Origin: an uncultured SAR86 cluster bacterium
GTDB taxonomy: Bacteria > Pseudomonadota > Gammaproteobacteria > Magnimaribacterales > D2472
Reading direction: 5' to 3'
Assembly (NCBI GenBank): GCA_902635645.1
Contig: CACPON010000001.1
Coordinates: 31,435 to 95,434, forward strand
Length of the DNA: 64,000 nucleotides
The notes beneath the pieces were generated by a model, which was given only the letters and a program-made list of their open reading frames with translations, ran no database searches and was not told the origin of the DNA. Below, one piece after another: positions 15,936 through 50,611 of the stretch. How positions within the stretch are numbered: position 1 is the first letter of the stretch; every line of letters starts with the position of its first letter. A program made the translations under genes and the position numbers.

Positions 15936-15940
15936 AAAAG

Positions 15941-34589: not shown

Positions 34590-34595
34590 AGCCAC

Positions 34596-34928
34596 GAGTT
34601 GGTTGGATGATCGCTAACCTAGTTAGAGGAAAGTCCGGACTTCATAGAGCAGGGCGCCAGGTAACACCTGGGAGACGTGAGTCTACGGAAAGTGCAACAG
34701 AAAGTATACCGCCAATATTTTTGGTAAGGGTGAAATGGTGAGGTAAGAGCTCACCGCTTAAGTGGAGACAGTTAAGGCATTGTAAACCCCAGCCCGAAGC
34801 AAGACCAAATAGAAATCCTTTTAAGTTGCTCGCTTAGGATTTGGGTAGGTTGCTAGAATATTGTGGCAACACAGTATCAAGATAGATGATCATCTTTTAC
34901 AGAATCCGGCTTATAGACCAACTCAACT
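34596..34928 (+). ncRNA. rnpB: RNase P RNA, bacterial type A
   Basis: Universally conserved blocks GAGGAAAGTCCGGAC (P4 5' strand), AGGGTGAAATGGTGAGGTAAGAGCTCACC, and ACAGAATCCGGCTTA (P4 3' strand). The 5' GAGTTGGT pairs with the 3' ACCAACTC as P1. About 330 nt. Ends are +/- a few nt. Confidence 0.9.
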
Positions 34929-34949
34929 TTTTAAATCATCTATTATATG

Positions 34950-34984
34950 GTGTGAAAAAGTGTGTAAATGTGTTGCAAAGTGTG
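34950..34984 (+). promoter_or_regulatory. four direct GTGTG/GTGTT repeats at exact 10-bp phasing; putative MraZ operator
   Basis: GTGTGaaaaaGTGTGtaaatGTGTTgcaaaGTGTG. Repeats start at 34950, 34960, 34970 and 34980, and the last ends 24 nt before the mraZ ATG. Possible overlapping promoter: TTGCAA (34973-34978), 17 nt, TATATT (34996-35001). Confidence 0.55.
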
Positions 34985-35008
34985 TAAAAAGGCTATATAT
35001 TTTAATCC

Positions 35009-35476
35009 ATGTATGGTTTTAACACAGTTTCACTTGATCAAAAGGGTAGATTAGCAATTCCTGCTAAATATCGGACCAGTTTTATTCAAAAAAATGAAAC
35101 TCAAATTGTTATAACCAAAGATCCACAATACCCATCATTAAAAATATATCCTCAGTCTCAATGGTTAGAAATTTCATCAAAATTAGAATCTCTTCAAGGG
35201 CTTGACCCAATTGTAAGAAACCTTCAGTGGACTATTTTAGGCAATGCAAGTGTTACGGAATTTGATCCAAAGGGGAGAATGCTAGTCTTAATTCCATCTG
35301 AATTAAGAAAGTATGCAGAATTGATTGATGAAAAGCAGATCTCATTAATTGGTATGGGTAATAAGTTTGAAATATGGAATGTTTCTAACTGGGAAATGAG
35401 ACAAACAGGTGGATCACTAGCAACTGAAATTTTAGATGTAGTTCTTCCAGAGAGCATTAAATCAATGTCTTTTTAA
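35009..35476 (+). CDS. mraZ: transcriptional regulator MraZ
   Basis: 155 aa. Duplicated SpoVT/AbrB-like halves each carrying the D.KGR motif (LDQKGRLAIP and FDPKGRMLV). Confidence 0.93.
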   Translation: MYGFNTVSLDQKGRLAIPAKYRTSFIQKNETQIVITKDPQYPSLKIYPQSQWLEISSKLESLQGLDPIVRNLQWTILGNASVTEFDPKGRMLVLIPSELRKYAELIDEKQISLIGMGNKFEIWNVSNWEMRQTGGSLATEILDVVLPESIKSMSF

Positions 35477-35488
35477 TAGGGGATAAAA

Positions 35489-36598
35489 ATGAATTTTGAA
35501 GTAATAGGGCAAGCAGTAGAAAACGCAAAGATTAAAGTTGTCGGTGTAGGGGGCGCTGGTGGAAATGCTGTTATTCATATGATTAATCATAATATTGAAG
35601 GAGTAGATTTTATTTGTGCTAATACAGATACTCAGGCTCTTTCAATGGCCGATGGAGCAATAACATTAAAACTTGGTAATGGTTTGACAAAAGGGCTTGG
35701 AGCTGGAGCAAATCCAGATGTTGGAAGAAAAGCTGCTGAAAGCGATAGAGCTGCAATAGAAGAATTATTAGTTGGAGCTGATATGATTTTTATAACTGCC
35801 GGCATGGGCGGTGGAACCGGAACTGGAGCAGCCCCGGTAGTTGCATCTATTGCTAAAGATTTGGGAGCACTTACAGTTGCTGTTGTTACAAAGCCGTTTA
35901 AATTTGAAGGTAAAAAAAGAATGACTGCAGCTGAAAAAGGATTAGCTGCTCTTGTTGAAGAGGTTGACAGTCTTGTAACCATCCCCAATCAAAAGTTATA
36001 TGAGATTTTGGGTGAAGATACAGCGATGCAGGATGCATTTGCTAAAGCAGATGATGTACTGAAAGGAGCTGTTCAAGGCATATCAGATATCATCTTAAAA
36101 AAAGGACATATCAATGTCGATTTTGCTGATGTAAAAACTGTTATGTCTGAAAAAGGCATTGCAATGATGGGTACAGGAAGAGCAAGTGGCAAAAATAGAG
36201 CAGAAGCTGCAGCTACTCAAGCTGTAAGAAGTGAATTACTTGAAGATATAAATCTAAAAAATGCAAGAGGCGTCTTAGTTAATATTACTGCAGCAAAACC
36301 AACATTGGGTGATCAGGCAGAGGTTGCTGATATTGTAGAAGAAATTGTTCATGAGGATGCAAATATAATTTATGGACTTGTATATGATGATTCAGTAAAA
36401 GATGATTTGCTGGTAACTATCGTGGCAACTGGTGTTGACCAAAGAGCTCCAAAACTAGTTATCGATAATCAGCCATCAATGCAATTAAATCCCGTTGGAT
36501 TGAATAAAGAACAAACAAGTCAAAAAGGTGGCACATCGTCTGCAGCGGAAATTGATTTCCTTGATGTGCCAACTTTTATGAGAAAGCAAGTAGATTAA
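35489..36598 (+). CDS. ftsZ: cell division protein FtsZ
   Basis: 369 aa. GVGGAGGNAV, tubulin signature GMGGGTGTGAAPVVA, NTDTQAL, and conserved C-terminal peptide DFLDVPTFMRKQVD. Confidence 0.97.
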   Translation: MNFEVIGQAVENAKIKVVGVGGAGGNAVIHMINHNIEGVDFICANTDTQALSMADGAITLKLGNGLTKGLGAGANPDVGRKAAESDRAAIEELLVGADMIFITAGMGGGTGTGAAPVVASIAKDLGALTVAVVTKPFKFEGKKRMTAAEKGLAALVEEVDSLVTIPNQKLYEILGEDTAMQDAFAKADDVLKGAVQGISDIILKKGHINVDFADVKTVMSEKGIAMMGTGRASGKNRAEAAATQAVRSELLEDINLKNARGVLVNITAAKPTLGDQAEVADIVEEIVHEDANIIYGLVYDDSVKDDLLVTIVATGVDQRAPKLVIDNQPSMQLNPVGLNKEQTSQKGGTSSAAEIDFLDVPTFMRKQVD

Positions 36599-36599
36599 G

Positions 36600-37493
36600 A
36601 TGCTGCATTTTCCAGTCTTGCTGGAAGAGTCAGTAGATTTTCTAGTTAACAAGAAAGAAGGCAGCTATATAGATTGCACTTATGGCCGAGGTGGTCATAC
36701 ACAAAAAATTCTAGATACAATTTCCTCCAAGTCTCAATTAACTTCTTTTGATAAAGATTGTGATGCTATTGAGCATGCAAACAATATTCAAAACACTAAC
36801 TTTAAGATCATTCAAGATTCATTTAGCAATATTAATAAATATTTTAGTAAAGATTCAGTAGATGGAATTCTTTATGATTTGGGCACTTGCTCAACTCATT
36901 TTGATGATGCATCTAGGGGTTTCAGTTTTAGGCATAATGGACCTCTTGATATGAGATTTGATACCAAAAAAGGAAAACCATTAGCGGACTGGATCAATAA
37001 AGCAACTGAAAATGATATTAAGGAAGTTTTATATAAATATGGTGATGAAAAGCATGCAAAGCTGATTTCACGAAATATTGTTGAATATCGAAATCAAAAT
37101 ACTCTTGATTCAACATTGCAGCTTGCAAACCTTATTCAAGATATATATCCAGATAAAAAAAATAAAATTCATCCAGCTACAAAATCATTCCAAGCATTCA
37201 GAATTCATTTAAATGACGAATTAACTGAGCTATCAAGCTCTTTAATTCACGCAAAGAGTTTACTCAAAAAAAATGGAATCGTTGTGGTTATTTCTTTTCA
37301 CTCTTTGGAAGATAATATTGTTAAAAATTTTTTTAAAGCTGAAATAAAAAATTATCCTAAAGACATACCAATAAATAATGAAGAGTTTAAAGAATTTGAA
37401 TGTATTGCAAAAAAGGTAAGGCCATCTGCTAAAGAGATTGAACTAAACAATAGATCAAGAAGTGCAATCATGAGAGTATTTAAAAAATTATGA
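36600..37493 (+). CDS. rsmH: 16S rRNA (cytosine1402-N4)-methyltransferase
   Basis: 297 aa. HFPVLLEE, DCTYGRGGHT, DLGTCSTHFD, SFHSLED motifs. Confidence 0.93.
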   Translation: MLHFPVLLEESVDFLVNKKEGSYIDCTYGRGGHTQKILDTISSKSQLTSFDKDCDAIEHANNIQNTNFKIIQDSFSNINKYFSKDSVDGILYDLGTCSTHFDDASRGFSFRHNGPLDMRFDTKKGKPLADWINKATENDIKEVLYKYGDEKHAKLISRNIVEYRNQNTLDSTLQLANLIQDIYPDKKNKIHPATKSFQAFRIHLNDELTELSSSLIHAKSLLKKNGIVVVISFHSLEDNIVKNFFKAEIKNYPKDIPINNEEFKEFECIAKKVRPSAKEIELNNRSRSAIMRVFKKL

Positions 37494-37774
37494 CCAATAA
37501 ACAAAACTCAATACTAATTTTGATGTTATTTTCTATCATCTTTCTCAGTCTTGAAAAAATTAAGCTTTCATTTGAAATAAATAGATTAAATAACAATCAA
37601 GAAAACCTAATCAAAGAGCATGAGTCATTTAAAGATAAAAATATAAAACTTATTACTCAGTCATATACCAATAATTCACCTGCTTACATTGAGCGCATTG
37701 CCAAGGAAGATCTTGGCATGGTTAAACGGAAGCCTAAGATCATAATTAAAAGCACTGCTAATGAAAAAAATTAA
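37490..37774 (+). CDS. ftsL: cell division protein FtsL
   Basis: 94 aa bitopic protein: TM helix followed by a coiled coil. Canonical slot between rsmH and ftsI. Confidence 0.7.
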   Translation: MTNKQNSILILMLFSIIFLSLEKIKLSFEINRLNNNQENLIKEHESFKDKNIKLITQSYTNNSPAYIERIAKEDLGMVKRKPKIIIKSTANEKN

Positions 37775-39380
37775 TTTTATAAATTGGAGACTATTCATTA
37801 CATGCTTTTGTCTTGTTGGAGCAATTTTTGCTGTTGTTTATAAAATTATATTAGTTCAAGTAGAAGACAGCCTTTTTTTGCAAAATGAAGGAAAAAAAAG
37901 ATATATAAAATATAGAGAAATTAATCCCGTAAGAGGAGCGATATATGACAGAAATAAGTTTCCGTTAGCAGTTTCTATTATTAATTATGATTTATATGCT
38001 TTAAAGGGTTTAAATATTGATAAATTTCTTAAGCTTAAAGACCTTATGGAGACAGATGAAGATATTTCTATTACTGAGCCTTTTAAAAGGAAAACTCTTC
38101 TTAAAAAAGGTTTAACTGCTGAAGAACAGTCAATTATTGAAGATCTTAATTTTAATGAATTAGAGATAGAAGTACGTCACAGCAGACATTACCCTCTAGG
38201 TGAACAGATTGCGCCACTTGTTGGTTTTTATGGAAAGGATAGAGCACAAGAGGGACTAGAAAAAAGTTATGATTCTATGCTTTCAGGAAAGAGTGGGAAA
38301 CAAAAGTTTTATAAAAATGCAAAACAAGAAATCATTTCAAAACCTATTGAGATTGAAAAATCAATTAAAGGTCAAGATATAGTCTTAACTATTGATTCAA
38401 CTATTCAGTTTTATTCTTATAAATATTTAGTTGAGGCTATAGTAAAAAATAACGCTAAAGCAGGAACAGTTTTAGTATTTGATAATTTAAGCGGAGAAAT
38501 ATTAGCAATAGCGAGCTATCCTTCTTATAACCCCAACAACCCAAATAGATCAATTCAAAAGAACAGGGCTCTTGTTGATGCATATGAGCTAGGATCTGTT
38601 ATAAAGCCTATAGTTTTTTCGAAGGCTGTAGATGAGGGTGTTATCAATCCTGATGAATTAATAGAGTTACCAAGACGTTTGCAATTAGGTGAGAAGATTA
38701 TTTCTGACACAAAAAATTATGTTCAATTAACCCCTAAAGAAATTATTGCTCATTCAAGCCAAGTTGGAGCATCTAAAATTGCATTAGAATTAGGATACGA
38801 TGCTTTGAAAACCAATTACTATAATTTTGGTTTTAGTAAACCAATATCAATCAACTTCCCATCAGCAGCTTTTGGTTTAATTAATAGTAAAGAAGAGGTT
38901 TCAGATAGAGAGCTCGCCAGTATGGGCTATGGGTATGGCTTTACAGTAAGCCCTTATCAAATTGCATCTGCTTATTCAACTTTTGCAAATAAGGGAATTC
39001 GCAAAGATTTCAAACTGCTTATAAATGACGAAGTAACACATAAGAGAGTTATCTCAAAAGAATCAGCCGATCATACCTTAGACGCTTTGCAAAAAGTTGT
39101 AGAGTTTGGTACTGGTAAGAAAGCAAATATAGATGGATTTACGCAGGGTGGAAAAACTGGAACTGTGCATAGGATTAGATCAGGATCAGGTTACGCTGAA
39201 GATTTATATCGCGCTTCTTTTGTTGGTATTGCACCTCTATCAGAGAAATCATTAACAATATTTGTATCAATTGAGGATCCTGGACTAAATGCATATTCAG
39301 GTGGCATGATTGCCGCACCTCTATTTGCAGAAATTGCTGAGAGTTCTTTAAATTATTTAGGTTATTTAGAGGATGAATAA
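37761..39380 (+). CDS. ftsI: peptidoglycan D,D-transpeptidase FtsI (PBP3)
   Basis: 539 aa. N-terminal TM, SxxK (GSVIKP), SxN-like region and KTG (GKTGT) motifs. Confidence 0.9.
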   Translation: MKKINFINWRLFITCFCLVGAIFAVVYKIILVQVEDSLFLQNEGKKRYIKYREINPVRGAIYDRNKFPLAVSIINYDLYALKGLNIDKFLKLKDLMETDEDISITEPFKRKTLLKKGLTAEEQSIIEDLNFNELEIEVRHSRHYPLGEQIAPLVGFYGKDRAQEGLEKSYDSMLSGKSGKQKFYKNAKQEIISKPIEIEKSIKGQDIVLTIDSTIQFYSYKYLVEAIVKNNAKAGTVLVFDNLSGEILAIASYPSYNPNNPNRSIQKNRALVDAYELGSVIKPIVFSKAVDEGVINPDELIELPRRLQLGEKIISDTKNYVQLTPKEIIAHSSQVGASKIALELGYDALKTNYYNFGFSKPISINFPSAAFGLINSKEEVSDRELASMGYGYGFTVSPYQIASAYSTFANKGIRKDFKLLINDEVTHKRVISKESADHTLDALQKVVEFGTGKKANIDGFTQGGKTGTVHRIRSGSGYAEDLYRASFVGIAPLSEKSLTIFVSIEDPGLNAYSGGMIAAPLFAEIAESSLNYLGYLEDE

Positions 39381-40827
39381 ATTAGCACAAATACTTGGTA
39401 TCCAATTTTCTAATGAAATAGAAATTTCGAGTATTACAAACACAACTGACAAAGTAAAAGAGGGCTCTATTTTTTTTGCTTTAAAAGGAACACAAAATCA
39501 TGGAAGCAAATATATTGATGAAGCTTTTGAAAAAGGAGCAAAATTTGCTATCCATAATGATAAAAATTTTTGTTCATCAAATGAAAATATTATCTATGTA
39601 AAAGATCTTCAATCTAATGGTGGTAAGAAGATTTTTAAAGTTCTAGAAGCTTTTTATACAATTAACAATTTCAATAGCCATAACTACTATGTATTTACAG
39701 GAACAAATGGCAAAACAACGTCAGCATACTTATGCCACCAACTACTCACAAATAAAGGTATTAGCTCGATATATATAGGTACTATCGGAACTCAATATAA
39801 TACCAATCCATTAGATCAATCTATATCAAAAAAAACAACGCCTGATATTTTTGAATTATTTGAAATATTTAATTTTTATAAAATCAAAAATAATATCGCA
39901 GTTTGTATTGAAATATCCTCACATGCGTTGGATCAAAATAGATTAGAGAATATCAAGTATTTTAAATCTTCATCTATATTAAATATTGGGTCTGATCATC
40001 TTGATTATCATAAGAACATTGAAAACTATGCAGAAAGTAAATTAAAAATTTTTAGTACTGAATCTGAAAGTAAATTTATCAACCAAAAAATTTTAAATGA
40101 GAATCCTAATATATTCATTGAAGATAGCTCGCTAACAAAAGTTTCTAATAACCCCTCTACTGATCTATATTACGAAATTCTTGAATGTTCTTTTAAAAAA
40201 TCATTATTCAAAATAATCCAAAATAATGAAAAAGGTGATTCAATATATAAATTTGAGACATCTATTTTTCCAAAGTTCAATATAGTTAACTTAATTTTTG
40301 CTATTTGTTCTGCTGGTTTATCAAACTTTGATAAAAATAAAATCAATAAATTGAACTTTTTAAAACTTCCTAAAGGCAGGAGCGATTTTATAAAAGATAT
40401 TCCTGCAAATATAATTATTGATTACGCGCATAATCCTGAAGGGTTTCTTTTATTTCTATCGTCATTGCAAGATTTTTTTGATAATTTGGTTGTCGTTTTT
40501 GGTTGTGGAGGTAATAGAGATAGATCAAAGAGACCATTAATGCTTAATGCTGCTTTGAAATATGCTGATAAGGTAATATTTACATCTGACAACTCTAGAA
40601 ATGAAGAGTTTAGTGAAATTTTATCTGATGCCATTGCAAACAATAATAGTGAAAGCAAAATTGATGTAATTGAAGATAGAAAAGAAGCTATTATTCATGG
40701 AACAAATTTAATTAAAAAAGATGACTGTTTGGTTATTTTGGGTAAGGGGCATGAAGAGACACAAGAAAAAGATGGTCAGATACTATTTTTTAGTGATCAT
40801 GAGGTAGTCAATGAAATTTATAACTAA
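39373..40827 (+). CDS. murE: UDP-N-acetylmuramoyl-L-alanyl-D-glutamate--2,6-diaminopimelate ligase
   Basis: 484 aa Mur ligase. P-loop GTNGKTT, DYAHNPEG, C-terminal DNSRNE and GKGHE. Confidence 0.88.
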   Translation: MNKLAQILGIQFSNEIEISSITNTTDKVKEGSIFFALKGTQNHGSKYIDEAFEKGAKFAIHNDKNFCSSNENIIYVKDLQSNGGKKIFKVLEAFYTINNFNSHNYYVFTGTNGKTTSAYLCHQLLTNKGISSIYIGTIGTQYNTNPLDQSISKKTTPDIFELFEIFNFYKIKNNIAVCIEISSHALDQNRLENIKYFKSSSILNIGSDHLDYHKNIENYAESKLKIFSTESESKFINQKILNENPNIFIEDSSLTKVSNNPSTDLYYEILECSFKKSLFKIIQNNEKGDSIYKFETSIFPKFNIVNLIFAICSAGLSNFDKNKINKLNFLKLPKGRSDFIKDIPANIIIDYAHNPEGFLLFLSSLQDFFDNLVVVFGCGGNRDRSKRPLMLNAALKYADKVIFTSDNSRNEEFSEILSDAIANNNSESKIDVIEDRKEAIIHGTNLIKKDDCLVILGKGHEETQEKDGQILFFSDHEVVNEIYN

Positions 40828-42145
40828 CTCAAATGACTTATCTAAATATTTAGATACTCCCATCAAAAAGAATATTCAGATAAAAGATATTTCTATTGAT
40901 TCTAGAACTATCAAAAAAGACTCACTATTTATTGCTATAAACGGAGAAAATTTTAATGGTAATGATTATGTTGATGAAGCAATTCACAAAGGAGCATGCC
41001 TTGCAATAACTGACAGTAAGAAATATAAAACTTCTAAGAATAAAAACATAATCTATGTCAATAATTCCATTTCTGCTCTTAAAAAGATTACAAGCAATAT
41101 TCTTAAATCTTTTGATGGAAATATTGTAGGCATAACAGGAAGCAACGGAAAAACTACCACAACTAAAATTATCGCAAATGTTTTATCAAAAAGCTCATCG
41201 ACTTTAAATAATTATAATAATGAAATTGGAATGCCCTTAAGTATTTTTAATGCAAAACAAAACTCAAAAAATTTAGTAATTGAGATGGGTGCAGCTAAAC
41301 CTGGAGACATAAAATATTTAAGTTCAATTCTAAAACCAAATATTGGAGTAATTACAAATATTGGTAATTCTCATTTAGAAAAACTTAAAAATATAAAAGG
41401 AGTCTTAAAAGTTAAATCTGAGTTAGTCTCAAACATAAAAAATGGCGGTTACTTAGTAGTTCCAAATGAAAACAAAGAACACCTAAAATTCTGGAAAAAA
41501 ATAATTAGAGGAAAAGAATTAATTACATTTGGCACTGAAAAAAATGCTGATTTTTATGCAATAAATATAAAATCCTCAATAAAAAAACAAGAATTTAATA
41601 TTATTTCAGATAAATATAATATAGATCATAAAATCAAAACTTCATTATCAGGAGTTCATAACATTAAAAATATTCTTGCAGCATTTGCCGTGTCGTATTT
41701 AATTGAAAATTCACCAAAATTATTTAATCAAAGATTAGAAAAGAGCATTCAAGTAAGACAAAAGCAACAGAAATGGATAAGAGGATCTTTACTAATTGAT
41801 GATACTTACAATGCGAATCCAGAATCTGTAAAAAAAGCTATTGATTTCTTATCAAATTCAAACAAGCGAAAAGTTTTCATTATGGGTGACATGCTTGAAT
41901 TAGGAAGATACAGAAAAAAGATGCATGCTGATGTTGGACAGTATGCAAAAAGAAAAAAAGTAGATGTTTTTCTTGGTTTTGGAGAATTAACAAAATATGC
42001 TGTATCTGGATATGGCAAAAATGGATTATTTTTTAATAATGAAAATGATCTTAAAAAATTTATTAAAGAAAACATTAAAAGTGGAGACATAGTTCTGATT
42101 AAAGGCTCTAGGGGAATAAAAATGGAGAGATTTATAAATGTTTGA
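40811..42145 (+). CDS. murF: UDP-N-acetylmuramoyl-tripeptide--D-alanyl-D-alanine ligase
   Basis: 444 aa. P-loop GSNGKTTT, GVHNIKN, DDTYNANPES, GSRG. Confidence 0.88.
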   Translation: MKFITNSNDLSKYLDTPIKKNIQIKDISIDSRTIKKDSLFIAINGENFNGNDYVDEAIHKGACLAITDSKKYKTSKNKNIIYVNNSISALKKITSNILKSFDGNIVGITGSNGKTTTTKIIANVLSKSSSTLNNYNNEIGMPLSIFNAKQNSKNLVIEMGAAKPGDIKYLSSILKPNIGVITNIGNSHLEKLKNIKGVLKVKSELVSNIKNGGYLVVPNENKEHLKFWKKIIRGKELITFGTEKNADFYAINIKSSIKKQEFNIISDKYNIDHKIKTSLSGVHNIKNILAAFAVSYLIENSPKLFNQRLEKSIQVRQKQQKWIRGSLLIDDTYNANPESVKKAIDFLSNSNKRKVFIMGDMLELGRYRKKMHADVGQYAKRKKVDVFLGFGELTKYAVSGYGKNGLFFNNENDLKKFIKENIKSGDIVLIKGSRGIKMERFINV

Positions 42146-43223
42146 ATATTTAGGCACTATTCTTGTAGACATAGATCCAGGTTTTGATGTTTTACGTTAT
42201 TTAACTGTAAGAACTTTGGGTGGTACAGTGACTGGATTATTAATATCTATTTTATTAGGCCCAATAATAATAAAGTCTCTCAAGTCTATGCAGTTTGAGC
42301 AACATGTTAGAGTTGATGGACCAGAATCTCATTATAAAAAATCAGGAACACCCACTATGGGAGGACTTTTAATTTTATCGTCCTTAGTGATTTCCACGTT
42401 ACTATGGTCCGACCTAGGCAACAGATATATTTGGGTTGTTCTTTTTACAACCATAGCCTTTGCTTTAATTGGATTCTTTGATGACTATTTAAAAATAAAA
42501 AATAAAAGTTCAGACGGACTTAATTCTAAACAGAAAATATTTTTACAAATTATTGCATCATTTATAGCTATGTATTATTTATATCATTCTGCTGAATTGA
42601 TTGCTGAAACTTCATTTATTGTTCCATTCTTTAAAGATCTAATAATTCCTATGAGCGCCTTTGTATTCATATCAACTGGAATGTTTGTTTTAATTGGATC
42701 ATCTAATGCTGTAAATTTAACTGATGGTCTTGATGGCCTTGCTATATTGCCATCTGTTCTTATTGCGGGAGCTCTCGGACTTATCGCTTATAGTATGGGT
42801 AACCAAATTATTGCTGATTATTTGTATTTACCTCACCTAAAATTATCAGGAGAGTTAATAGTTTTTTGTGGAGCACTTATTGGTTCTGGTATTGGTTTTC
42901 TCTGGTATAACACGTATCCTGCTCAAATTTTTATGGGAGATATTGGTTCACTAACTTTAGGAGCAATATTAGGAATACTGGCGGTGATTTTAAGACATGA
43001 GCTAGTTTTTGCAATCATGGCGGGTGTATTTGTAATAGAAACCTTAAGTGTTGCAATTCAGGTTATTTCCTATAAGACTCGAGGAAAAAGAGTATTTTTA
43101 ATGGCACCTATCCACCATCATTATGAATTAAAAGGCTGGCCAGAGCCTAAAATCATTGTTAGGTTTTGGATAGTTACATTAGTTCTAATTTTAATAGCAT
43201 TAGCTACATTAAAACTTCGATAA
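42138..43223 (+). CDS. mraY: phospho-N-acetylmuramoyl-pentapeptide transferase
   Basis: 361 aa polytopic protein. TPTMGG, NAVNLTDGLDGLA, PIHHHYE motifs. Confidence 0.95.
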   Translation: MFEYLGTILVDIDPGFDVLRYLTVRTLGGTVTGLLISILLGPIIIKSLKSMQFEQHVRVDGPESHYKKSGTPTMGGLLILSSLVISTLLWSDLGNRYIWVVLFTTIAFALIGFFDDYLKIKNKSSDGLNSKQKIFLQIIASFIAMYYLYHSAELIAETSFIVPFFKDLIIPMSAFVFISTGMFVLIGSSNAVNLTDGLDGLAILPSVLIAGALGLIAYSMGNQIIADYLYLPHLKLSGELIVFCGALIGSGIGFLWYNTYPAQIFMGDIGSLTLGAILGILAVILRHELVFAIMAGVFVIETLSVAIQVISYKTRGKRVFLMAPIHHHYELKGWPEPKIIVRFWIVTLVLILIALATLKLR

Positions 43224-43232
43224 ATTTAAGGA

Positions 43233-44258
43233 ATGAAATCTTTAATATATGGTTATGGGGTTACCGGAAAATCTTTCGAAAGATATTTAACTAATAGAAA
43301 TATTCCTTTTGATATTTTTGATGAAAATATAGATCAGCATAATAAAAAGAATAACCTCTCTGATTATCAAACTATATTTTGCAGTCCTGGAATCCCAAAA
43401 GATTTATATGAATCACTTAAACAATACGCTGAGGTTATTACGGATCTTGATATTTTTTTTAAGGAAGATAACTCAATAAAAATAGGCATCACAGGAACAA
43501 ATAGAAAAAGCACAACTTGTTTCCACTTAGAACAACTTATTAGAGAAATAGATACAGTTAATCTTGTTGGTAATATCGGTAATCCAATGCTAGACGTGAT
43601 TAATAATAATAAAACATATTCAATTATAGAGTTATCCAGTTTTCAATTAGATAAGATGAATTTTAATGATTTAGATTATGGGATCCTTTTAAATATAGCA
43701 CCAGATCATTTAGATTATCACGGGTCTTTTGAAGCCTATAAAAGTGCTAAAGAAAAGATACAATCTTCAAAAAATTTCTCAAATGAAAATAATCCATACG
43801 AACTCTTCAGGTGGATAACAGGAAAAGAATCAAAAAAATTAGATCTAAAAAACCTTCCTTATAGGTTTGAAAAAATTACTCCATCGATCATTAATGACTC
43901 AAAATCAACCAACTCTAACTCACTCTTCTTTGCTCTTGAAAATGCTATAAAGTTTTTTGGCTTGAAAAATTTTGTATTAATTGTTTGTGGTGATCCAGCA
44001 AAGGAAAATCATAAATCTCTTAAGATAAATGGACCTGAAGAAATTTTAGTTTATGGGAAGCACAAAAAAGAAATTGATGCATGTTTAGATAACAATAACA
44101 AAAAATTATTTAATACACTTGAAGATATTATTTCATATCTAAAAGATTCAAATAAAAAGAATATTTTATTTTCACCTGGATATCCAAGTGGTAAGGATTA
44201 TAAGAATTTTGAGATTAGGGGAGAGCACTTCAATTCTTGTTTAAACCAAGATGAATAG
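43233..44258 (+). CDS. murD: UDP-N-acetylmuramoylalanine--D-glutamate ligase (unusually short)
   Basis: 341 aa. Co-linear with MurD at the ends (YGYGVTGKS, ELSSFQL, NIAPDHLDYH, INDSKSTN, SPGYPSGKDYKNFEIRGEHF). The P-loop reads GTNRKST. Canonical slot between mraY and ftsW. Confidence 0.8.
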   Translation: MKSLIYGYGVTGKSFERYLTNRNIPFDIFDENIDQHNKKNNLSDYQTIFCSPGIPKDLYESLKQYAEVITDLDIFFKEDNSIKIGITGTNRKSTTCFHLEQLIREIDTVNLVGNIGNPMLDVINNNKTYSIIELSSFQLDKMNFNDLDYGILLNIAPDHLDYHGSFEAYKSAKEKIQSSKNFSNENNPYELFRWITGKESKKLDLKNLPYRFEKITPSIINDSKSTNSNSLFFALENAIKFFGLKNFVLIVCGDPAKENHKSLKINGPEEILVYGKHKKEIDACLDNNNKKLFNTLEDIISYLKDSNKKNILFSPGYPSGKDYKNFEIRGEHFNSCLNQDE

Positions 44259-45357
44259 AACAAACAATTTTTTAATTTTATTTTCATTTATAAGCTTAAT
44301 GAGCCTTGGGTTTATTATGGTTGCTTCATCTAGTATTTATGTTGCTGATGAGATGACAGGAGACCCATTTTATTTTGCTAGCAGACAGCTCATATTCATT
44401 TCAGCTGGGTTGCTTGCAATGAGTATTTTTTTGCTGCTGCCCTCTGATTTTTTATTTAAAGCTGATTGGGTGTTTATGCTTATAAGTATTCTTTTGTTAA
44501 TTGCTTTATTTATTCCAGATATAGGCACTTCAGTAAATGGGAGCATTAGATGGATAAGATTAGGACCAATAAACATTCAGCCGTCAGAAGTTTGTAAATT
44601 TAGCTTAATTTTATATATTTCTGGTTATTCGGTTAGAAGAATGTCTGAAATTAATACTCTAAGAAGTTTTCTTAAACCTTTGTTTCTTCTTTTTATTATT
44701 TCATTATTAATAATGGGTCAGCCTGATCTTGGGTCTACAGCAATAATATGCTTGCTTGTTGTTGCAATATTATTTTATGCAGGAATATCTTTTTTTCAGT
44801 TCAGCTTATTATCAATTTTAATATCATTATTGGGATATTTAGCGATTTCAAGCTCACCTATGAGACTGGCTAGAGTTCTTGCTTTCACTGATCCTTTTGC
44901 AGAGGATGTTGTAAGAAATGCTGGATGGCAACTTTCAAATTCATTAATAAGCATTGGTCAAGGAGGGTGGTTTGGCTTAGGTATTGGTAATAGTTTTCAA
45001 AAGAACTTTTTTTTACCGGAAGCTCATACAGATTTTATTTTTGCAATTCTTGTTGAAGAGCTTGGAATAGTTGGTGGATTGGTTTTGATTGCACTGTTTG
45101 TTGTTTTGTTTATTGGTATTCTTAGAGTAGCCCTTGATTCTCTTAGTAAAGACAGGCTATTTCAAGGGTATGTTTCTTTTGGAATTATGGTTTTAATAGC
45201 AGTTCAAGCTCTATTTAATATGGCAGTGAATATTGGTTTGCTTCCAACTAAAGGACTTACGCTTCCATTTATTAGTTACGGTGGAACTAGTATTATTATT
45301 ATGATGTCCCTTATAGCAATAGTTATAAGAATAAATAATGAAAACAAATTAATATAA
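44251..45357 (+). CDS. ftsW: SEDS peptidoglycan glycosyltransferase FtsW
   Basis: 368 aa, about 10 TM. QPSE, PEAHTDFIF, LPTKGLTLPFISYGGTS motifs. Confidence 0.9.
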   Translation: MNRTNNFLILFSFISLMSLGFIMVASSSIYVADEMTGDPFYFASRQLIFISAGLLAMSIFLLLPSDFLFKADWVFMLISILLLIALFIPDIGTSVNGSIRWIRLGPINIQPSEVCKFSLILYISGYSVRRMSEINTLRSFLKPLFLLFIISLLIMGQPDLGSTAIICLLVVAILFYAGISFFQFSLLSILISLLGYLAISSSPMRLARVLAFTDPFAEDVVRNAGWQLSNSLISIGQGGWFGLGIGNSFQKNFFLPEAHTDFIFAILVEELGIVGGLVLIALFVVLFIGILRVALDSLSKDRLFQGYVSFGIMVLIAVQALFNMAVNIGLLPTKGLTLPFISYGGTSIIIMMSLIAIVIRINNENKLI

Positions 45358-45361
45358 TCGT

Positions 45362-46411
45362 ATGAAAATTATAGTATCTGCAGCAAAAACAGGCGGACAT
45401 ATTTTTCCTGCAATAGCTGTTGGCAATGAATTAAAACACAATGGTCATGATATTGTTTTCATTGGTTCGGGCGCTCCAATTGAGGTCAATGCATTAAAAA
45501 AAACAAGTTTTCGTTACCACTTCATATCGATGGAGGGATTCCGTGGTAAAAATTTTTTCGAAAAAATTAAATCTTTGCTACTTATACCAATAAGTATTTT
45601 TAAAATTTTAAAAATTATTAGAAATGAAAAAGTCGATGCTATGATTGGGTTTGGCGGCTTTATTACAGTTCCAGTTGGTATTGCATTCTATATATCTAGA
45701 AAACCAATATTTATCCATGAACAAAATGCTGTCTTGGGCTCAGCTAATAAGCTGCTTGGAAAGTTTTCAAAGATTATTTTTAGCGCTTTTAAATTAAAAG
45801 AAACTTTCAAAAATACATGCATTACCGGCAACCCCATTAGAGAAGAATTTCGTACAGAAGTTCCAAAGGAAGATTATTCTGAGATTACAAAGATATACAT
45901 AACTGGTGGCAGTCAAGGTTCAGAGTATATAAATACCAATATCCCAATGGCATTTGAAGGTCTAAGTAAAAAAATATTGGTTAAGCATCAATCTGGTAAA
46001 GGAAAGGATAAAGACTTAAAGGACTTTTATAAAAAATTTAATATTGAGGCTGAAGTCAAAGAGTTTTATGAAAACCCTGAATCATTAATAAGCTGGTCTG
46101 ATTTTGTTATTTCTAGAGCTGGAGCCTTATCTGTTTCTGAGGTTACCTCATTATCCAAAGGCCTGCTTATGATACCGTTACCGTCTGCTATTGATAATCA
46201 TCAACTTTATAATGCAAAACATATTGAGGACTTAAATATGGGGCTTATACATGAAGAAAAAGATGGTTTAGATGCCCTTAAAAAAAAGATATCAACAATT
46301 GTTAATCAAAAAACATACAATACATGGAAATTACACAGAAATAAAAACCATCTTGAGTCAGCTTCTATTATCGCAGGCAAAGTTATCGAATACCTTGAGC
46401 AAATGAAATGA
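45362..46411 (+). CDS. murG: undecaprenyldiphospho-muramoylpentapeptide beta-N-acetylglucosaminyltransferase
   Basis: 349 aa. GGHIFPA N-terminal motif, HEQN, RAGALSVSE. Confidence 0.9.
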   Translation: MKIIVSAAKTGGHIFPAIAVGNELKHNGHDIVFIGSGAPIEVNALKKTSFRYHFISMEGFRGKNFFEKIKSLLLIPISIFKILKIIRNEKVDAMIGFGGFITVPVGIAFYISRKPIFIHEQNAVLGSANKLLGKFSKIIFSAFKLKETFKNTCITGNPIREEFRTEVPKEDYSEITKIYITGGSQGSEYINTNIPMAFEGLSKKILVKHQSGKGKDKDLKDFYKKFNIEAEVKEFYENPESLISWSDFVISRAGALSVSEVTSLSKGLLMIPLPSAIDNHQLYNAKHIEDLNMGLIHEEKDGLDALKKKISTIVNQKTYNTWKLHRNKNHLESASIIAGKVIEYLEQMK

Positions 46412-47802
46412 ATTTTTTTAAAAAAATAAAACATATACATTTTGTAGGCATAGGCGGTGCCGGAATGATAGGTATAGCAAGATTGCTTCTTAAAAAGGGC
46501 TACAAAGTATCTGGGTCTGACATTAATGATACATATGAGCTAAAAAAAATTAAGAAAGAGGGCGCAAAAGTCTTTATAGGTCATGACAAAACAAACATCA
46601 AAAAAGCGAACTTAATAGTAGTCTCAACTGCTATTGATAATAAAAATCCAGAAATTCTTGAAGGCATAAAGAATGGTATAACAATAATTCCTCGTGCTGA
46701 AATGCTTGGTAGCATTATGAGAGGTTATGAGAGCATAGCCATCGCTGGAAGTCATGGTAAAACAACTACAACAAGCATGATTGCAAAAATTTTTAATACT
46801 GCTGAACTAAGCCCAACATATGTAGTTGGAGGAAAAGTTTTAAGCACCGATGAAAACTCTGATTTAGGTATGGGTAATTATTTAATTGCAGAAGCAGATG
46901 AAAGTGATGGATCTTTTACTCATTTAAACCCAGATGTAGCGATATTAACCAATATAGATGATGATCATTTGACTCACTATGACAATAATTTTGAAAACCT
47001 TTTAGATTCATTTATTCAATTTTCAGAGAATGTGCCTTTTTATGGATATCTGATAGTTAATGGAGATGATAAAAATATAAAAAAAATTACAAAAAGAATT
47101 TCAAGAAAACAGATTACTTTTGGAAAATCAAAAAATGTAGATTTTCAAATTTTAAATTCTGGTTATAAAAACGGATTTCAGACCTTTGAGATTATGGATA
47201 ATCAAAGAAGTAAAAAATATGCCTTTTGCATCAGGCAGCCTGGTTTTCATAATATTTATAACGCTACAGCTTCTATAGCTGTATGTATAGAAGAAGGCCT
47301 ACCTATAAATGCAATAAAAAAAGGCATTAAAGAATTTACAGGAGTTGGCAGAAGGTATGAGAAGGCAGATATTAAAATTAATTCGAATAATAAAATTCTA
47401 ATAGATGATTATGGTCATCATCCAATAGAAATTTTATCTAATATAAAAGCATGCAAAGAAGAATTTCCTAGAAAAAAGATTTGTATGATATTTCAACCTC
47501 ATCGATTTTCTAGAACAGCACAATTGTTTGATGATTTTATTCAAGTTCTTAAAAAAGTTGATTCATTGATAATGCTGGATATTTATGCTGCAAGTGAAAA
47601 TCCTATCAGAGGTATTGATTCAAGAACCATTGTTGAAACACTTAAGCAAAAAGGACATAAAGATGTTTCGTATATCAAAAAACATAATGATGTAGTTAAA
47701 CTTATTGAATCAAAAGAAAATAGTTTCGATGTTCTTATTACCCAGGGTGCAGGCAGTGTTTCAAGCGTATGCGAATTAATAAAAGAAACATGGAAGAAAT
47801 AA
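46408..47802 (+). CDS. murC: UDP-N-acetylmuramate--L-alanine ligase
   Basis: 464 aa. HFVGIGGAGM, P-loop GSHGKTTTT, DDYGHHP. Confidence 0.93.
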   Translation: MNFFKKIKHIHFVGIGGAGMIGIARLLLKKGYKVSGSDINDTYELKKIKKEGAKVFIGHDKTNIKKANLIVVSTAIDNKNPEILEGIKNGITIIPRAEMLGSIMRGYESIAIAGSHGKTTTTSMIAKIFNTAELSPTYVVGGKVLSTDENSDLGMGNYLIAEADESDGSFTHLNPDVAILTNIDDDHLTHYDNNFENLLDSFIQFSENVPFYGYLIVNGDDKNIKKITKRISRKQITFGKSKNVDFQILNSGYKNGFQTFEIMDNQRSKKYAFCIRQPGFHNIYNATASIAVCIEEGLPINAIKKGIKEFTGVGRRYEKADIKINSNNKILIDDYGHHPIEILSNIKACKEEFPRKKICMIFQPHRFSRTAQLFDDFIQVLKKVDSLIMLDIYAASENPIRGIDSRTIVETLKQKGHKDVSYIKKHNDVVKLIESKENSFDVLITQGAGSVSSVCELIKETWKK

Positions 47803-50530: not shown

Positions 50531-50611
50531 TTCTACATATCAATTCCATTAGAATGCGCATTCCTTGGTTTGCATCAATTAAGAAGCAAATCTTTAACCA
50601 TAAGGTAGCAA

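What the first reader, a model, noticed from the sequence alone, without database searches (positions are those of the whole stretch)
35489..36598. ftsZ is gene 2 of the dcw operon (mraZ-ftsZ-rsmH) instead of its last gene
Seen in the sequence:
- The ORF is an unmistakable, complete FtsZ, with the tubulin signature GGGTGTG and the C-terminal DFLDVPTFMRKQVD peptide.
- It starts 12 nt after the mraZ stop and ends 1 nt before the rsmH ATG.
- The rest of the cluster then runs in canonical order: ftsL-ftsI-murE-murF-mraY-murD-ftsW-murG-murC-ddl-ftsQ-ftsA.
- ftsA is followed by rpsF, not by ftsZ-lpxC.

Established knowledge:
- The ...ftsQ-ftsA-ftsZ order at the 3' end of dcw is one of the most conserved gene orders in bacteria.
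- In E. coli, ftsZ dosage depends on promoters inside ddlB/ftsQ/ftsA, and the FtsZ:FtsA ratio is critical.

Inference: ftsZ is now the first gene after the regulator MraZ and its putative operator, and is transcribed ahead of ftsA. That would be a rewired dosage and regulatory logic for the division ring. I cannot tell from memory whether this arrangement has been described for any lineage.
Basis: partly seen in the sequence, partly recalled or inferred. Interest (0 to 1): 0.7.

Follow-up and report, generated by a model that had tools for sequence, protein, structure and literature searches.

The report
ftsZ moved to front of dcw
In a major family of the abundant marine SAR86 bacteria, the cell-division gene ftsZ has moved from the end of the otherwise very conserved division/cell-wall operon to second place, right behind the regulator gene mraZ; a sister SAR86 clade moved ftsZ forward in a different way, which suggests that gene position is being used to set FtsZ dosage.

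Summary
The order is mraZ (35009-35476), a complete FtsZ (35489-36598), rsmH (36600-37493), then ftsL through ftsA in canonical order. ftsA is followed by rpsF.

It is not an assembly artefact. All 19 SAR86 species-representative genomes recovered, and two more contigs, have mraZ-ftsZ-rsmH. All 75 metagenome contigs with room, and three further loci, have ftsA-rpsF. Of 61 non-SAR86 loci, 55 have ftsA-ftsZ; none of the others has mraZ-ftsZ.

The window belongs to SAR86 family D2472 (Suzuki), genus-level relative SCGC AAA076-P13.

New here: a second SAR86 clade, including family AG-339-G14 (RedeBAC7D11), has mraZ-rsmH-ftsL-ftsQ-ftsA-ftsZ-ftsI-mur. Each order keeps canonical adjacencies that the other lacks, so a canonical ancestor was rearranged twice.

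Three conserved cis features fit retuned expression:
- four GTGT MraZ boxes over a promoter-like site;
- a strong Shine-Dalgarno sequence before ftsZ;
- an RNA hairpin in the ftsZ 3' end, built from rare codons and specific to this arrangement.

Co-transcription and dosage effects are inferred, not shown. I found no published description. Verdict: new variant of a known kind, interest about 0.6.

The parts
34595..34929 (+). rnpB (RNase P RNA, class A), directly upstream of the dcw promoter region. The rsmI-rnpB-mraZ context is ancestral and unchanged.
   Evidence: Rfam RF00010, 318.6 bits, full length. The 3' end of rnpB is visible upstream of mraZ in the SAR86 loci.
34949..34985 (+). MraZ operator: four GTGT boxes starting at 34950, 34960, 34970 and 34980, with an exact 10-nt period (6-nt spacers).
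   Evidence: Read from the sequence. Conserved in all 19 SAR86 loci and present in the sister-clade loci. [quoted passage not shown] MraZ here keeps both DxxKGR DNA-binding motifs.
34973..35001 (+). Promoter-like site TTGCAA-17-TATATT overlapping boxes 3 and 4. The -10 element ends 7 nt before the mraZ ATG, and no Shine-Dalgarno sequence precedes mraZ, so the mRNA may be leaderless or nearly so.
   Evidence: Consensus scan, 9 of 12 matches. The hexamers are conserved in the closer relatives L001-L004, L007, L008 and L017, and less clearly in deeper groups. This is a consensus match only; the transcription start site is not mapped.
35009..35476 (+). mraZ, gene 1 of the cluster.
   Evidence: TIGR00242 96.8 bits. 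PF02381 72.4 bits.
35477..35488 (+). 12-nt mraZ-ftsZ spacer carrying a strong Shine-Dalgarno sequence (AGGGGA).
   Evidence: A G-rich Shine-Dalgarno motif, AGGGG(A/T) in 19 of the 20 sequences (AGGGA in L002), lies 4-9 nt before the ftsZ ATG. It is the clearest Shine-Dalgarno sequence among the 15 dcw genes of the window.
35489..36598 (+). ftsZ, gene 2 of the cluster. It is complete and canonical, with the GGGTGTG motif and the C-terminal FtsA-binding-type peptide.
   Evidence: TIGR00065 394.7 bits. It is 69-93% identical across 19 SAR86 species, and the C-terminal motif FLDVPTFMRKQVD is identical in all of them.
36529..36571 (+). Conserved RNA hairpin inside the last 70 nt of ftsZ. A 9-10 bp outer stem (GGCACATC / GATGTGCC) encloses an inner GGAAA / TTTCC stem, flanked by an A-run and CTTTTAT.
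   Evidence: Codon identity at synonymous sites is 0.67-0.85 here against a gene mean of 0.52. RNAalifold gives a consensus on 21 sequences with 97% of cells paired, 2 compensatory pairs and tolerated G.U pairs. The hairpin alone folds at -15.5 kcal/mol. The stem uses rare codons: TCG is 4% of Ser, GTG 7% of Val, TTC 15% of Phe. It is absent from sister-clade and canonical ftsZ 3' ends. No Rfam match.
36600..37493 (+). rsmH, gene 3. Its ATG lies 1 nt after the ftsZ stop.
   Evidence: TIGR00006 330 bits. The junction is 1-5 nt in all 20 sequences.
37490..48695 (+). ftsL-ftsI-murE-murF-mraY-murD-ftsW-murG-murC-ddl in canonical order. Eight of the ten junctions from rsmH-ftsL to ddl-ftsQ overlap; the largest gap is 9 nt.
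   Evidence: NCBIfam hits. Junction distances.
48682..49314 (+). Putative ftsQ (210 aa), assigned by position.
   Evidence: No Pfam or NCBIfam hit in the window. Counterparts in L161 and L162 carry weak PF03799 FtsQ_DivIB_C hits.
49304..50530 (+). ftsA, now the last dcw gene.
   Evidence: TIGR01174 478 bits.
50527..50555 (+). Conserved promoter of the rpsF operon, TTGATT-17-TAGAAT. Its -35 element overlaps the ftsA stop codon, so no remnant of ftsZ is left.
   Evidence: Alignment of 16 diverse loci. The -10 element is conserved in all of them (three single-base variants). The -35 element is TTGAT in 15 of 16 and TTGCAA in the most divergent locus, L161.
50612..51061 (+). rpsF, the first gene after the cluster, followed by rpsR, rplI and dnaB.
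   Evidence: TIGR00166. PF01084 for rpsR at 51054-51248.

Best explanation
The window comes from a SAR86 (Magnimaribacterales) bacterium of family D2472 (Suzuki).

Evolution. In the ancestor of this group, the single orthologous ftsZ was relocated from the 3' end of the dcw cluster (after ftsA) to the slot between mraZ and rsmH. The most likely route is duplication followed by loss of the original copy. The arrangement has been stably inherited since. A sister SAR86 clade independently moved the whole ftsQ-ftsA-ftsZ block to between ftsL and ftsI. The order therefore moved ftsZ ahead of ftsI and the mur genes twice, starting from a canonical ancestor.

Proposed mechanism (inferred).
- The 15.5-kb, 15-gene cluster has no intergenic gap longer than 12 nt. 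It is transcribed mainly from one promoter that is overlapped by four MraZ boxes.
- Placing ftsZ second gives it the highest transcript dosage and puts it directly under MraZ autoregulation.
- Within the shared mRNA, mraZ has no Shine-Dalgarno sequence and is possibly leaderless, so it would be translated weakly. ftsZ has a strong Shine-Dalgarno sequence and would be translated strongly.
- The hairpin in the ftsZ 3' end separates the high-dosage mraZ-ftsZ segment from the low-dosage rsmH...ftsA segment, either by partial termination or by protecting the upstream mRNA.
- The FtsZ excess over FtsA is then encoded by position, not by the ftsZ-proximal promoters used in E. coli.

What is shown: gene identities, gene order, lineage-wide conservation, the operator match, the conserved Shine-Dalgarno sequence, hairpin conservation and specificity, and the second arrangement in the sister clade.

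What is inferred: co-transcription, MraZ control of ftsZ, hairpin function, the dosage consequence, and selection as the cause.
For: Order and identities.

Lineage-wide conservation:
- 19 of 19 SAR86 genomes have rsmI-mraZ-ftsZ-rsmH-ftsL-ftsI-murE, as do L171 and L172.
- ftsA-rpsF is in 75 of 75 informative contigs and in L161, L163 and L164.
- Of the 61 non-SAR86 loci, 55 have ftsA-ftsZ and none has mraZ-ftsZ.

Taxonomy: the closest genome is SCGC AAA076-P13 (93% FtsZ identity). The genera SCGC-AAA076-P13 and MED-G82 are in o__SAR86 f__D2472.

Sister arrangement:
- mraZ-rsmH-ftsL-ftsQ-ftsA-ftsZ-ftsI-murE... is seen in L165-L170 and L173-L181.
- L166 is GCA_902563105.1, classified o__SAR86 f__AG-339-G14.

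Orthology and sister relation: in neighbour-joining trees, each arrangement is monophyletic (99-100%) and the two group together (86% for FtsZ, 100% for FtsA).

Independence of the two moves: this arrangement keeps ftsL-ftsI and ddl-ftsQ, while the sister keeps mraZ-rsmH and ftsA-ftsZ. Their common ancestor must therefore have had all four canonical adjacencies.

Cis elements:
- The operator matches the published GTG(G/T)-N6 consensus and is conserved.
- The Shine-Dalgarno sequence before ftsZ is conserved, and mraZ has none.
- mraZ shows no rise in synonymous-site conservation, so there is no sign of a conserved internal promoter feeding ftsZ.
- The hairpin is supported.
- The cluster is compact throughout.
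- rpsF has its own conserved promoter abutting ftsA.
Against: - No transcript, transcription-start or protein data exist for this lineage in what I could reach. Co-transcription is inferred only from spacing.
- Promoter-like matches are not enriched in this AT-rich region: 65 were found against 90 expected from shuffles. Internal promoters can be neither found nor excluded by consensus.
- Covariation support for the hairpin is modest. There are two compensatory pairs, each in one sequence, and 27 of 500 shuffles reach the observed value.
- The hairpin's U-tract is short and is not conserved in the L013-L019 group (CCUUCAU), which weakens the terminator reading.
- The hairpin lies inside a translated region, so ribosomes would melt it.
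- The taxonomy of three of the four sister-arrangement lineages is unresolved.
- SAR86 families TMED112 (CHAB-I-7) and f__SAR86 (Magnimaribacteraceae) were not positively sampled. One of them could still be canonical.
- The neighbour-joining trees involve long branches.
- Whole genomes could not be searched for a divergent extra ftsZ.
- Neutral fixation of a rearrangement cannot be excluded from sequence alone.
Confidence: 0.6

Rival explanations
1. The relocation is real and inherited but selectively neutral. It was a chance block move fixed by drift in a small, fast-evolving streamlined lineage. Expression is still set by promoters embedded in coding sequence and by translation efficiency, so position has no regulatory meaning.
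For: - SAR86 evolves fast. FtsZ and FtsA identity between the two SAR86 clades is as low as identity to outgroups, and Freel et al. note a rapid evolutionary clock.
- Other adjacencies also changed: lpxC is no longer near the cluster and ftsA now abuts rpsF.
- Internal promoters cannot be excluded in AT-rich DNA.
Against: - Two independent moves in sister clades both carry ftsZ upstream of ftsI and the mur genes. All other dcw adjacencies stayed intact.
- The arrangement is invariant over FtsZ divergence down to 66%.
- Features specific to this arrangement evolved at the new junctions: a strong Shine-Dalgarno sequence and a rare-codon hairpin.
Confidence: 0.25
2. The mraZ-adjacent ftsZ is an extra paralogue, and the true divisome ftsZ sits elsewhere in the genome.
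For: - Orphan ftsZ copies outside dcw do exist in other Gammaproteobacteria. L040, a Marinobacterium MAG, has an ftsZ with no ftsA, ddl or murC within 10 kb.
- Whole SAR86 genomes could not be scanned.
Against: - ftsA is followed by the rpsF promoter in every SAR86 D2472-type contig examined.
- Each of the 19 SAR86 genomes contributed exactly one FtsZ locus among the 80 best of 597 confirmed hits. These include contigs of 880 kb and 859 kb.
- The protein has all FtsZ hallmarks and an invariant C-terminal peptide.
- It is sister to the ftsA-adjacent FtsZ of the other SAR86 clade.
Confidence: 0.04
3. Assembly or binning chimera at the 35476/35489 and 36598/36600 junctions.
For: None found.
Against: Identical junction architecture appears in single-cell genomes, short-read MAGs, long-read MAGs and unbinned metagenome contigs from many studies. 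Sequence divergence at the junctions rules out a shared artefact.
Confidence: 0.01
4. Xenologous replacement: a foreign ftsZ was inserted behind mraZ and the native copy was lost.
For: - The best non-SAR86 FtsZ matches are only 50-58% identical and come from mixed proteobacterial classes.
- ftsZ is somewhat richer in G+C (about 36%) than its neighbours.
Against: - FtsZ groups with the sister SAR86 clade's FtsZ (86% bootstrap), in parallel with FtsA (100%).
- The N-terminus (MNWEV/MNWKV) and the short length (369-376 aa) are shared with sister-clade FtsZ.
- Higher G+C is expected for a conserved, highly expressed gene in an AT-rich genome.
Confidence: 0.05

Closest known systems
Canonical gammaproteobacterial dcw cluster (E. 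coli, Pseudomonas): mraZ-rsmH-ftsL-ftsI-murE-murF-mraY-murD-ftsW-murG-murC-ddlB-ftsQ-ftsA-ftsZ-lpxC
   Same: - Same gene set on a single strand, with tight packing.
- Same upstream context (rplM-rpsI-petABC-sspA-lpoA-rsmI-rnpB-mraZ), as in Pseudomonas by my recollection. The sister-clade loci show it too.
- MraZ boxes lie at the first promoter.
- Every adjacency from rsmH to ftsA is canonical.
   Different: - ftsZ lies between mraZ and rsmH, which breaks two of the most conserved adjacencies (mraZ-rsmH and ftsA-ftsZ).
- lpxC is not linked, and ftsA abuts the rpsF promoter.
- In E. coli, by established knowledge, most ftsZ transcription comes from promoters inside ddlB, ftsQ and ftsA. Here ftsZ is far upstream of those genes.
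SAR86 sister-clade arrangement found here: mraZ-rsmH-ftsL-ftsQ-ftsA-ftsZ-ftsI-murE-... (L165-L170, L173-L181, including f__AG-339-G14 / RedeBAC7D11)
   Same: - Same order-level lineage and the same upstream context and MraZ boxes.
- ftsZ is placed ahead of ftsI and the mur genes.
- A strong Shine-Dalgarno sequence precedes ftsZ.
   Different: - The whole ftsQAZ block moved, so ftsA-ftsZ and mraZ-rsmH stay adjacent.
- There is no hairpin in the ftsZ 3' end.
- MurD is full length at 398-437 aa, against 341 aa here.
Mollicutes minimal dcw operon mraZ-mraW(rsmH)-ftsA-ftsZ (Mycoplasma genitalium; PMC12957436)
   Same: ftsZ lies in a short distance behind a promoter with four MraZ boxes, so MraZ directly governs ftsZ transcription.
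   Different: In Mollicutes the proximity arises from loss of the mur and fts genes in between, and the relative order is canonical. Here all the genes are kept and the order is permuted.
Lineages with dispersed or reduced dcw clusters (Cyanobacteria, Chlamydiae and Planctomycetes; PMC8871954)
   Same: ftsZ is not at the canonical 3' end of a complete cluster.
   Different: Those cases are dispersal or gene loss. Here the cluster stays complete and compact, and ftsZ remains inside it at a new, conserved position.

Membership tests
FtsZ (TIGR00065 / PF00091 + PF12327), the divisome tubulin homologue | Full-length match above the curated cut-off | tested here: met
   394.7 bits against a cut-off of 295.2. 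PF00091 162 bits and PF12327 89 bits.
FtsZ (TIGR00065 / PF00091 + PF12327), the divisome tubulin homologue | Tubulin signature GGGTGTG and a conserved C-terminal peptide of the type that binds FtsA and ZipA | tested here: met
   GMGGGTGTGAAP and ...FLDVPTFMRKQVD are read from the translation. The latter motif is identical in 20 sequences. Binding itself is not testable here.
FtsZ (TIGR00065 / PF00091 + PF12327), the divisome tubulin homologue | Sole (orthologous) copy in the genome | tested here: inconclusive
   There is one locus per SAR86 genome, no ftsZ after ftsA, and it is sister to the ftsA-linked FtsZ of the other clade. Complete genomes could not be scanned.
[quoted passage not shown] | Contiguous co-oriented set of mraZ, rsmH, ftsL, ftsI, murE, murF, mraY, murD, ftsW, murG, murC, ddl, ftsQ, ftsA and ftsZ | tested here: met
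   All 15 genes lie in 35009-50530 on the + strand, with a maximum gap of 12 nt. ftsQ is assigned by position only.
[quoted passage not shown] | Canonical order with mraZ-rsmH at the 5' end and ftsQ-ftsA-ftsZ at the 3' end | tested here: not met
   ftsZ lies between mraZ and rsmH, and ftsA is the last gene. This is why I file it as a variant and not a standard member.
[quoted passage not shown] | Transcription as one operon from the mraZ promoter | not testable with these tools
   Only the spacing and the absence of terminator-like sites between genes can be read.
MraZ operator (repeated GTG(G/T) boxes, 6-nt spacers, upstream of mraZ) | Three or four GTG(G/T) boxes at a 10-nt period next to the promoter | tested here: met
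   GTGT occurs at 34950, 34960, 34970 and 34980. The boxes are conserved in 19 loci. The consensus is from PMC12957436.
MraZ operator (repeated GTG(G/T) boxes, 6-nt spacers, upstream of mraZ) | Bound by the cognate MraZ, with an effect on transcription | not testable with these tools
   Needs EMSA or reporter assays. MraZ here keeps both DxxKGR motifs.
Intrinsic terminator / attenuator (considered for the hairpin at 36529-36571) | Stable G+C-rich stem-loop | tested here: met
   The hairpin alone folds at -15.5 kcal/mol. A consensus structure holds in 21 sequences.
Intrinsic terminator / attenuator (considered for the hairpin at 36529-36571) | Run of U directly after the stem | tested here: inconclusive
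   The window has AACUUUUAU, with two bases before only four U. The L013-L019 group has AACCUUCAU. The simple terminator scan did not call the site.
Intrinsic terminator / attenuator (considered for the hairpin at 36529-36571) | Transcript 3' ends at the site | not testable with these tools
   Needs Term-seq or 3'-RACE.

The most novel reading that the evidence does not exclude
In the genome-streamlined SAR86 order, the loss of local ftsZ promoters and regulators made operon position the main determinant of FtsZ dosage. Selection then drove two independent relocations of ftsZ to the promoter-proximal part of the dcw operon. In the D2472 family a new coding-embedded RNA hairpin evolved as an intra-operon attenuator or stabiliser, so that a two-gene mraZ-ftsZ module, autoregulated by MraZ, sets the division rate. 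This would be a natural experiment showing that dcw gene order encodes stoichiometry.
Probability: 0.3. Interest if true: 0.75.

Novelty: new variant of a known kind. Interest (0 to 1): 0.6.

Why it matters
The mraZ-rsmH and ftsQ-ftsA-ftsZ adjacencies are among the most conserved gene orders in bacteria. Why the order is kept is a long-standing question, with three main proposals: dosage, assembly order, and 'genomic channeling' linked to cell shape.

[quoted passage not shown] It offers two independent, stably inherited permutations of an otherwise intact cluster, both moving ftsZ promoter-proximal. That makes the dosage-by-position hypothesis directly testable with existing marine metatranscriptomes and with the first SAR86 isolate.

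It also has a practical consequence. ftsZ transcript abundance is being used as an in-situ growth index for SAR86 (PMC13349992). If ftsZ there is co-transcribed with mraZ from an autoregulated promoter, its transcript level may not be comparable with that of taxa that use dedicated ftsZ promoters.

Tried and rejected
1. Assembly artefact: rejected.

2. Second ftsZ or lpxC in the window: none.

3. A conserved internal promoter for ftsZ inside mraZ. Synonymous-site conservation across mraZ is flat at 0.40-0.64, so there is no sign of one. Absence is not proven.

4. A known RNA family for the hairpin, or for the mraZ and rpsF leaders: no Rfam match.

5. Assigning the remaining sister-arrangement lineages (L165, L167, L168) and the deeper groups with this arrangement to SAR86 families.
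   - Genome names were absent from the Freel et al. supplements.
   - Only GCA_902563105.1 could be mapped.
   - The last look-ups returned metagenome records without taxonomy.
   - A guess that a mislabelled 'Flavobacteriaceae' record might be TMED112 failed.

6. Seeing the 3' end of the sister-clade cluster, to learn whether ddl abuts rpsF.

7. The representative-library search did not list a close SAR86 FtsZ. Its top hit, P0241, is an unrelated high-G+C tandem double FtsZ. The search was useful only because P0298 led to the sister clade.

8. Literature. I found no description of this order. Megrian et al. 2022, the largest dcw survey I know of, is not held, so prior mention there cannot be excluded.
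Full report
**1. The observation**

The ORF map and the sequence show mraZ at 35009-35476, a 369-aa ORF at 35489-36598 and rsmH at 36600-37493. The gaps are 12 nt and 1 nt.
- The 369-aa protein is an unambiguous FtsZ: TIGR00065 at 394.7 bits against a cut-off of 295.2, plus PF00091 and PF12327.
- It carries GMGGGTGTGAAP and the C-terminal DFLDVPTFMRKQVD.
- The remaining genes are ftsL, ftsI, murE, murF, mraY, murD, ftsW, murG, murC, ddl, a 210-aa positional ftsQ, and ftsA.
- ftsA ends at 50530, and rpsF starts 81 nt later, followed by rpsR, rplI, dnaB, alr and pyrG.
- The 15 genes occupy 15.5 kb with no gap above 12 nt, and most junctions overlap.
- The window holds no lpxC, no secA and no second ftsZ.

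**2. Where the window comes from, and whether the order is real**

A scan of one genome per GTDB species with this FtsZ returned 19 loci from genomes labelled SAR86, at 69-93% identity. The closest is SCGC AAA076-P13. The other 61 loci come from other lineages at 55% identity or less.

tblastn with the window's proteins gave these results.
- All 19 SAR86 loci carry rsmI-mraZ-ftsZ-rsmH-ftsL-ftsI-murE.
- Of the 61 other loci, 55 carry ftsA directly before ftsZ. None of the rest has mraZ next to ftsZ.

The SAR86 loci come from single-cell genomes, short-read MAGs and long-read MAGs. Their junction sequences differ, so a shared artefact is excluded. Two further contigs show the same order.

For the other junction, a metagenome scan with FtsA gave 80 contigs. 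All 75 with enough room continue ftsA-rpsF. So do a locus with only 72% FtsA identity and a locus on a 1.28-Mb contig.

Freel et al. 2024 (PMC11582366) define SAR86 as the order Magnimaribacterales with four families. Their tables place the genera SCGC-AAA076-P13 and MED-G82 in f__D2472 ('Suzuki'). The window is therefore a D2472 genome. All 19 loci may belong to that family, and I could not assign the deeper groups.

**3. A second, different permutation in the same order**

- The representative-library search listed P0298. It is 52% identical, 374 aa long, and has the same MNW-V-E N-terminus.
- Its relatives were then placed on contigs.
- All have the same upstream context as the window: rplM-rpsI-petABC-sspA-lpoA-rsmI-mraZ.
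- Their order is mraZ-rsmH-ftsL-ftsQ-ftsA-ftsZ-ftsI-murE-murF-mraY-murD-ftsW-murG-murC. The whole ftsQAZ block sits between ftsL and ftsI.
- Four FtsZ lineages show this order, one of them in ten independent assemblies.
- One locus, L166, is GCA_902563105.1, which Freel et al. classify as o__SAR86 f__AG-339-G14 (RedeBAC7D11).

In neighbour-joining trees of FtsZ and FtsA:
- the window's arrangement is monophyletic (100% and 100%);
- the sister arrangement is monophyletic (99% and 100%);
- the two join to the exclusion of 32 outgroups (86% and 100%).

The adjacency logic is decisive for history. The window's arrangement keeps the canonical ftsL-ftsI and ddl-ftsQ adjacencies. The sister arrangement keeps the canonical mraZ-rsmH and ftsA-ftsZ adjacencies. 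Deriving either from the other would require re-creating two canonical adjacencies by chance, while each is one block move from the canonical order. The common ancestor was therefore canonical, and ftsZ was moved forward twice.

The grouping with the ftsA-linked FtsZ of the sister clade also shows that the window's ftsZ is the orthologue and not an added paralogue.

**4. Cis features of the new arrangement**

(a) Operator.
- GTGT boxes start at 34950, 34960, 34970 and 34980, an exact 10-nt period.
- They are conserved in all 19 loci and present in the sister clade.
- The window's MraZ keeps both DxxKGR motifs.

(b) Promoter.
- TTGCAA-17-TATATT (34973-35001) overlaps boxes 3 and 4.
- Its -10 element ends 7 nt before the mraZ ATG, and none of the 20 sequences has a Shine-Dalgarno sequence before mraZ.
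- mraZ may therefore be leaderless. This is a consensus match only.

(c) ftsZ ribosome-binding site. A G-rich Shine-Dalgarno motif, AGGGG(A/T) in 19 of the 20 sequences (AGGGA in L002), lies 4-9 nt before the ATG. It is the clearest Shine-Dalgarno sequence in the cluster.

(d) No embedded promoter signal. Synonymous-site conservation across mraZ is flat.

(e) Hairpin.
- The last ~30 codons of ftsZ show codon identity of 0.67-0.85 at synonymous sites, against 0.52 for the gene.
- The cause is a hairpin at 36529-36571: an outer stem GGCACATC/GATGTGCC, an inner stem GGAAA/TTTCC, and -15.5 kcal/mol for the hairpin alone.
- RNAalifold recovers it from 21 sequences. 97% of cells pair, two pairs show compensatory changes and G.U pairs are tolerated.
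- The covariation statistic is only modest, reached by 27 of 500 shuffles.
- The stem is built from codons that are rare in this genome and almost never vary across the family: TCG is 4% of Ser, GTG 7% of Val, TTC 15% of Phe and GGC 18% of Gly.
- All six sequences tested with this arrangement fold well there (z = -2.1 to -3.6). The four sister-clade and four canonical ftsZ 3' ends do not (z = -1.9 to +0.7).
- No Rfam family matches.

(f) Downstream boundary. A promoter TTGATT-17-TAGAAT, conserved in the 16 loci aligned with minor variants, begins inside the ftsA stop codon and serves rpsF. Nothing of the old ftsZ position remains.

**5. How it most likely works**

*Shown:* identity, order, inheritance, operator match, Shine-Dalgarno sequence, hairpin, and parallel relocation.

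*Inferred:*
- The cluster is one operon driven mainly by the MraZ-controlled promoter.
- Second position gives ftsZ maximal transcript dosage and direct MraZ feedback.
- Weak translation of mraZ and strong translation of ftsZ split regulator and product levels on one mRNA.
- The hairpin lowers read-through into rsmH...ftsA or stabilises the upstream segment.
- The FtsZ excess over FtsA, which is critical in E. coli by established knowledge (Dai & Lutkenhaus 1992), is then produced by position. In E. coli it comes from the ftsZ-proximal promoters inside ddlB, ftsQ and ftsA.

I put about 0.95 on the evolutionary statement and about 0.5 on the regulatory model.

*Rivals:*
- Neutral fixation (0.25). 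The two parallel moves and the junction-specific features argue against it.
- Paralogue (0.04).
- Xenologous replacement (0.05).
- Chimera (0.01).

**6. Comparison with what is known**

The thing is a dcw cluster in content, orientation and compactness. It fails the canonical-order criterion, so it is a variant.
- The nearest functional analogue is the Mollicutes mraZ-mraW-ftsA-ftsZ operon, where MraZ also sits just upstream of ftsZ. That proximity arose by gene loss, and the order there is canonical.
- Dispersed clusters (Cyanobacteria) or ftsZ loss (Chlamydiae, Planctomycetes) are different phenomena (PMC8871954).
- The SAR86 isolate paper does not mention fts, dcw or synteny.
- Searches for SAR86 with ftsZ, for dcw gene order, and for the junction names found no description.
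- The main dcw survey (Megrian et al. 2022) is not in the library, so I cannot exclude a mention there.

**7. Verdict**

It is a new variant of a known kind.

Interest is about 0.6. A specialist would be moderately surprised that two of the most conserved bacterial adjacencies are broken, and more so that the same order did it twice in different ways. The finding also makes the 'order encodes dosage' idea testable with existing data.

Noticed in passing
L165-L170, L173-L181 (for example L166:6726-21197): A second non-canonical dcw order occurs in a sister SAR86 clade, which includes f__AG-339-G14 / RedeBAC7D11. The order is mraZ-rsmH-ftsL-ftsQ-ftsA-ftsZ-ftsI-murE-murF-mraY-murD-ftsW-murG-murC, so the whole ftsQAZ block was moved between ftsL and ftsI. 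The 3' end beyond murC could not be read.
   Followed up: partly
window 36529-36571: A conserved RNA hairpin made of rare codons lies inside the 3' end of ftsZ. It is specific to the mraZ-ftsZ-rsmH arrangement and matches no Rfam family. Its function (attenuator or mRNA stabiliser) is unknown.
   Followed up: yes
window 43233-44258: MurD is only 341 aa. It has a partial Mur_ligase_M hit, a weak N-terminal hit and no Mur_ligase_C hit, and it scores below the TIGR01087 cut-off (182 against 212 bits). The short form recurs in a relative (343 aa in L163). Sister-clade SAR86 MurD is 398-437 aa and has the C-terminal domain.
   Followed up: partly
window 34996-35011: mraZ has no Shine-Dalgarno sequence in any of the 20 sequences with this arrangement, and the promoter-like -10 element ends 7 nt before its ATG, so the mRNA may be leaderless. 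Three of the four distinct sister-clade loci (L165, L166/L170 and L167) have a GGGAC/GGGGTC motif about 7-12 nt before the mraZ ATG. In L168 the boxes lie about 100 nt upstream of the ATG.
   Followed up: partly
P0004 (JGI contig of 40,624 bp; 93% FtsZ identity): This is a 525-aa gene call that fuses MraZ to FtsZ in frame. The MraZ tail and the spacer are missing (...GGSLSTV-MNFEV...), and the call starts at a GTG inside the MraZ boxes. It is either an assembly or frameshift error, or a natural deletion variant.
   Followed up: no
window 50527-50611: The rpsF promoter (TTGATT-17-TAGAAT) overlaps the ftsA stop codon. A strongly conserved leader (TTCCTTGGTTT...AAATCTTTAACCATAAGG) follows and has no Rfam match. 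It is possibly an S6/S18 autoregulatory leader. RpsF has a long acidic C-terminal tail (149 aa), and rpsR overlaps rpsF with no priB between them.
   Followed up: partly
L040:9902-11215: A Marinobacterium MAG carries a 437-aa ftsZ in a non-dcw context, next to an ion channel, an O-methyltransferase and a sugar transferase. No ftsA, ddl or murC lies within 10 kb. It is probably a second, orphan ftsZ copy.
   Followed up: partly
L010 (859-kb contig) and L164 (1.28-Mb contig): These long-read SAR86 assemblies have apparent frameshifts in mraZ, ftsZ, mraY, murD and murG. For example, ftsZ is interrupted after 26 codons in L010. I read these as sequencing errors, not pseudogenes.
   Followed up: no
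window 36611-36632: A second small inverted repeat, TTCCAG-N5-CTGGAA, lies in codons 4-11 of rsmH and is conserved in 21 sequences. It encodes the widely conserved HxPVLLxE motif, so amino-acid constraint may be enough to explain it.
   Followed up: no
window 14886-19582 and 25241-28533: Other envelope and division genes lie in the same 64 kb in ordinary gammaproteobacterial contexts: mreB-mreC-(mreD)-yhdP, a MurA-like gene (PF00275) and a zapE-like AFG1 ATPase gene next to rplM. The organism keeps a rod-type elongation system.
   Followed up: no
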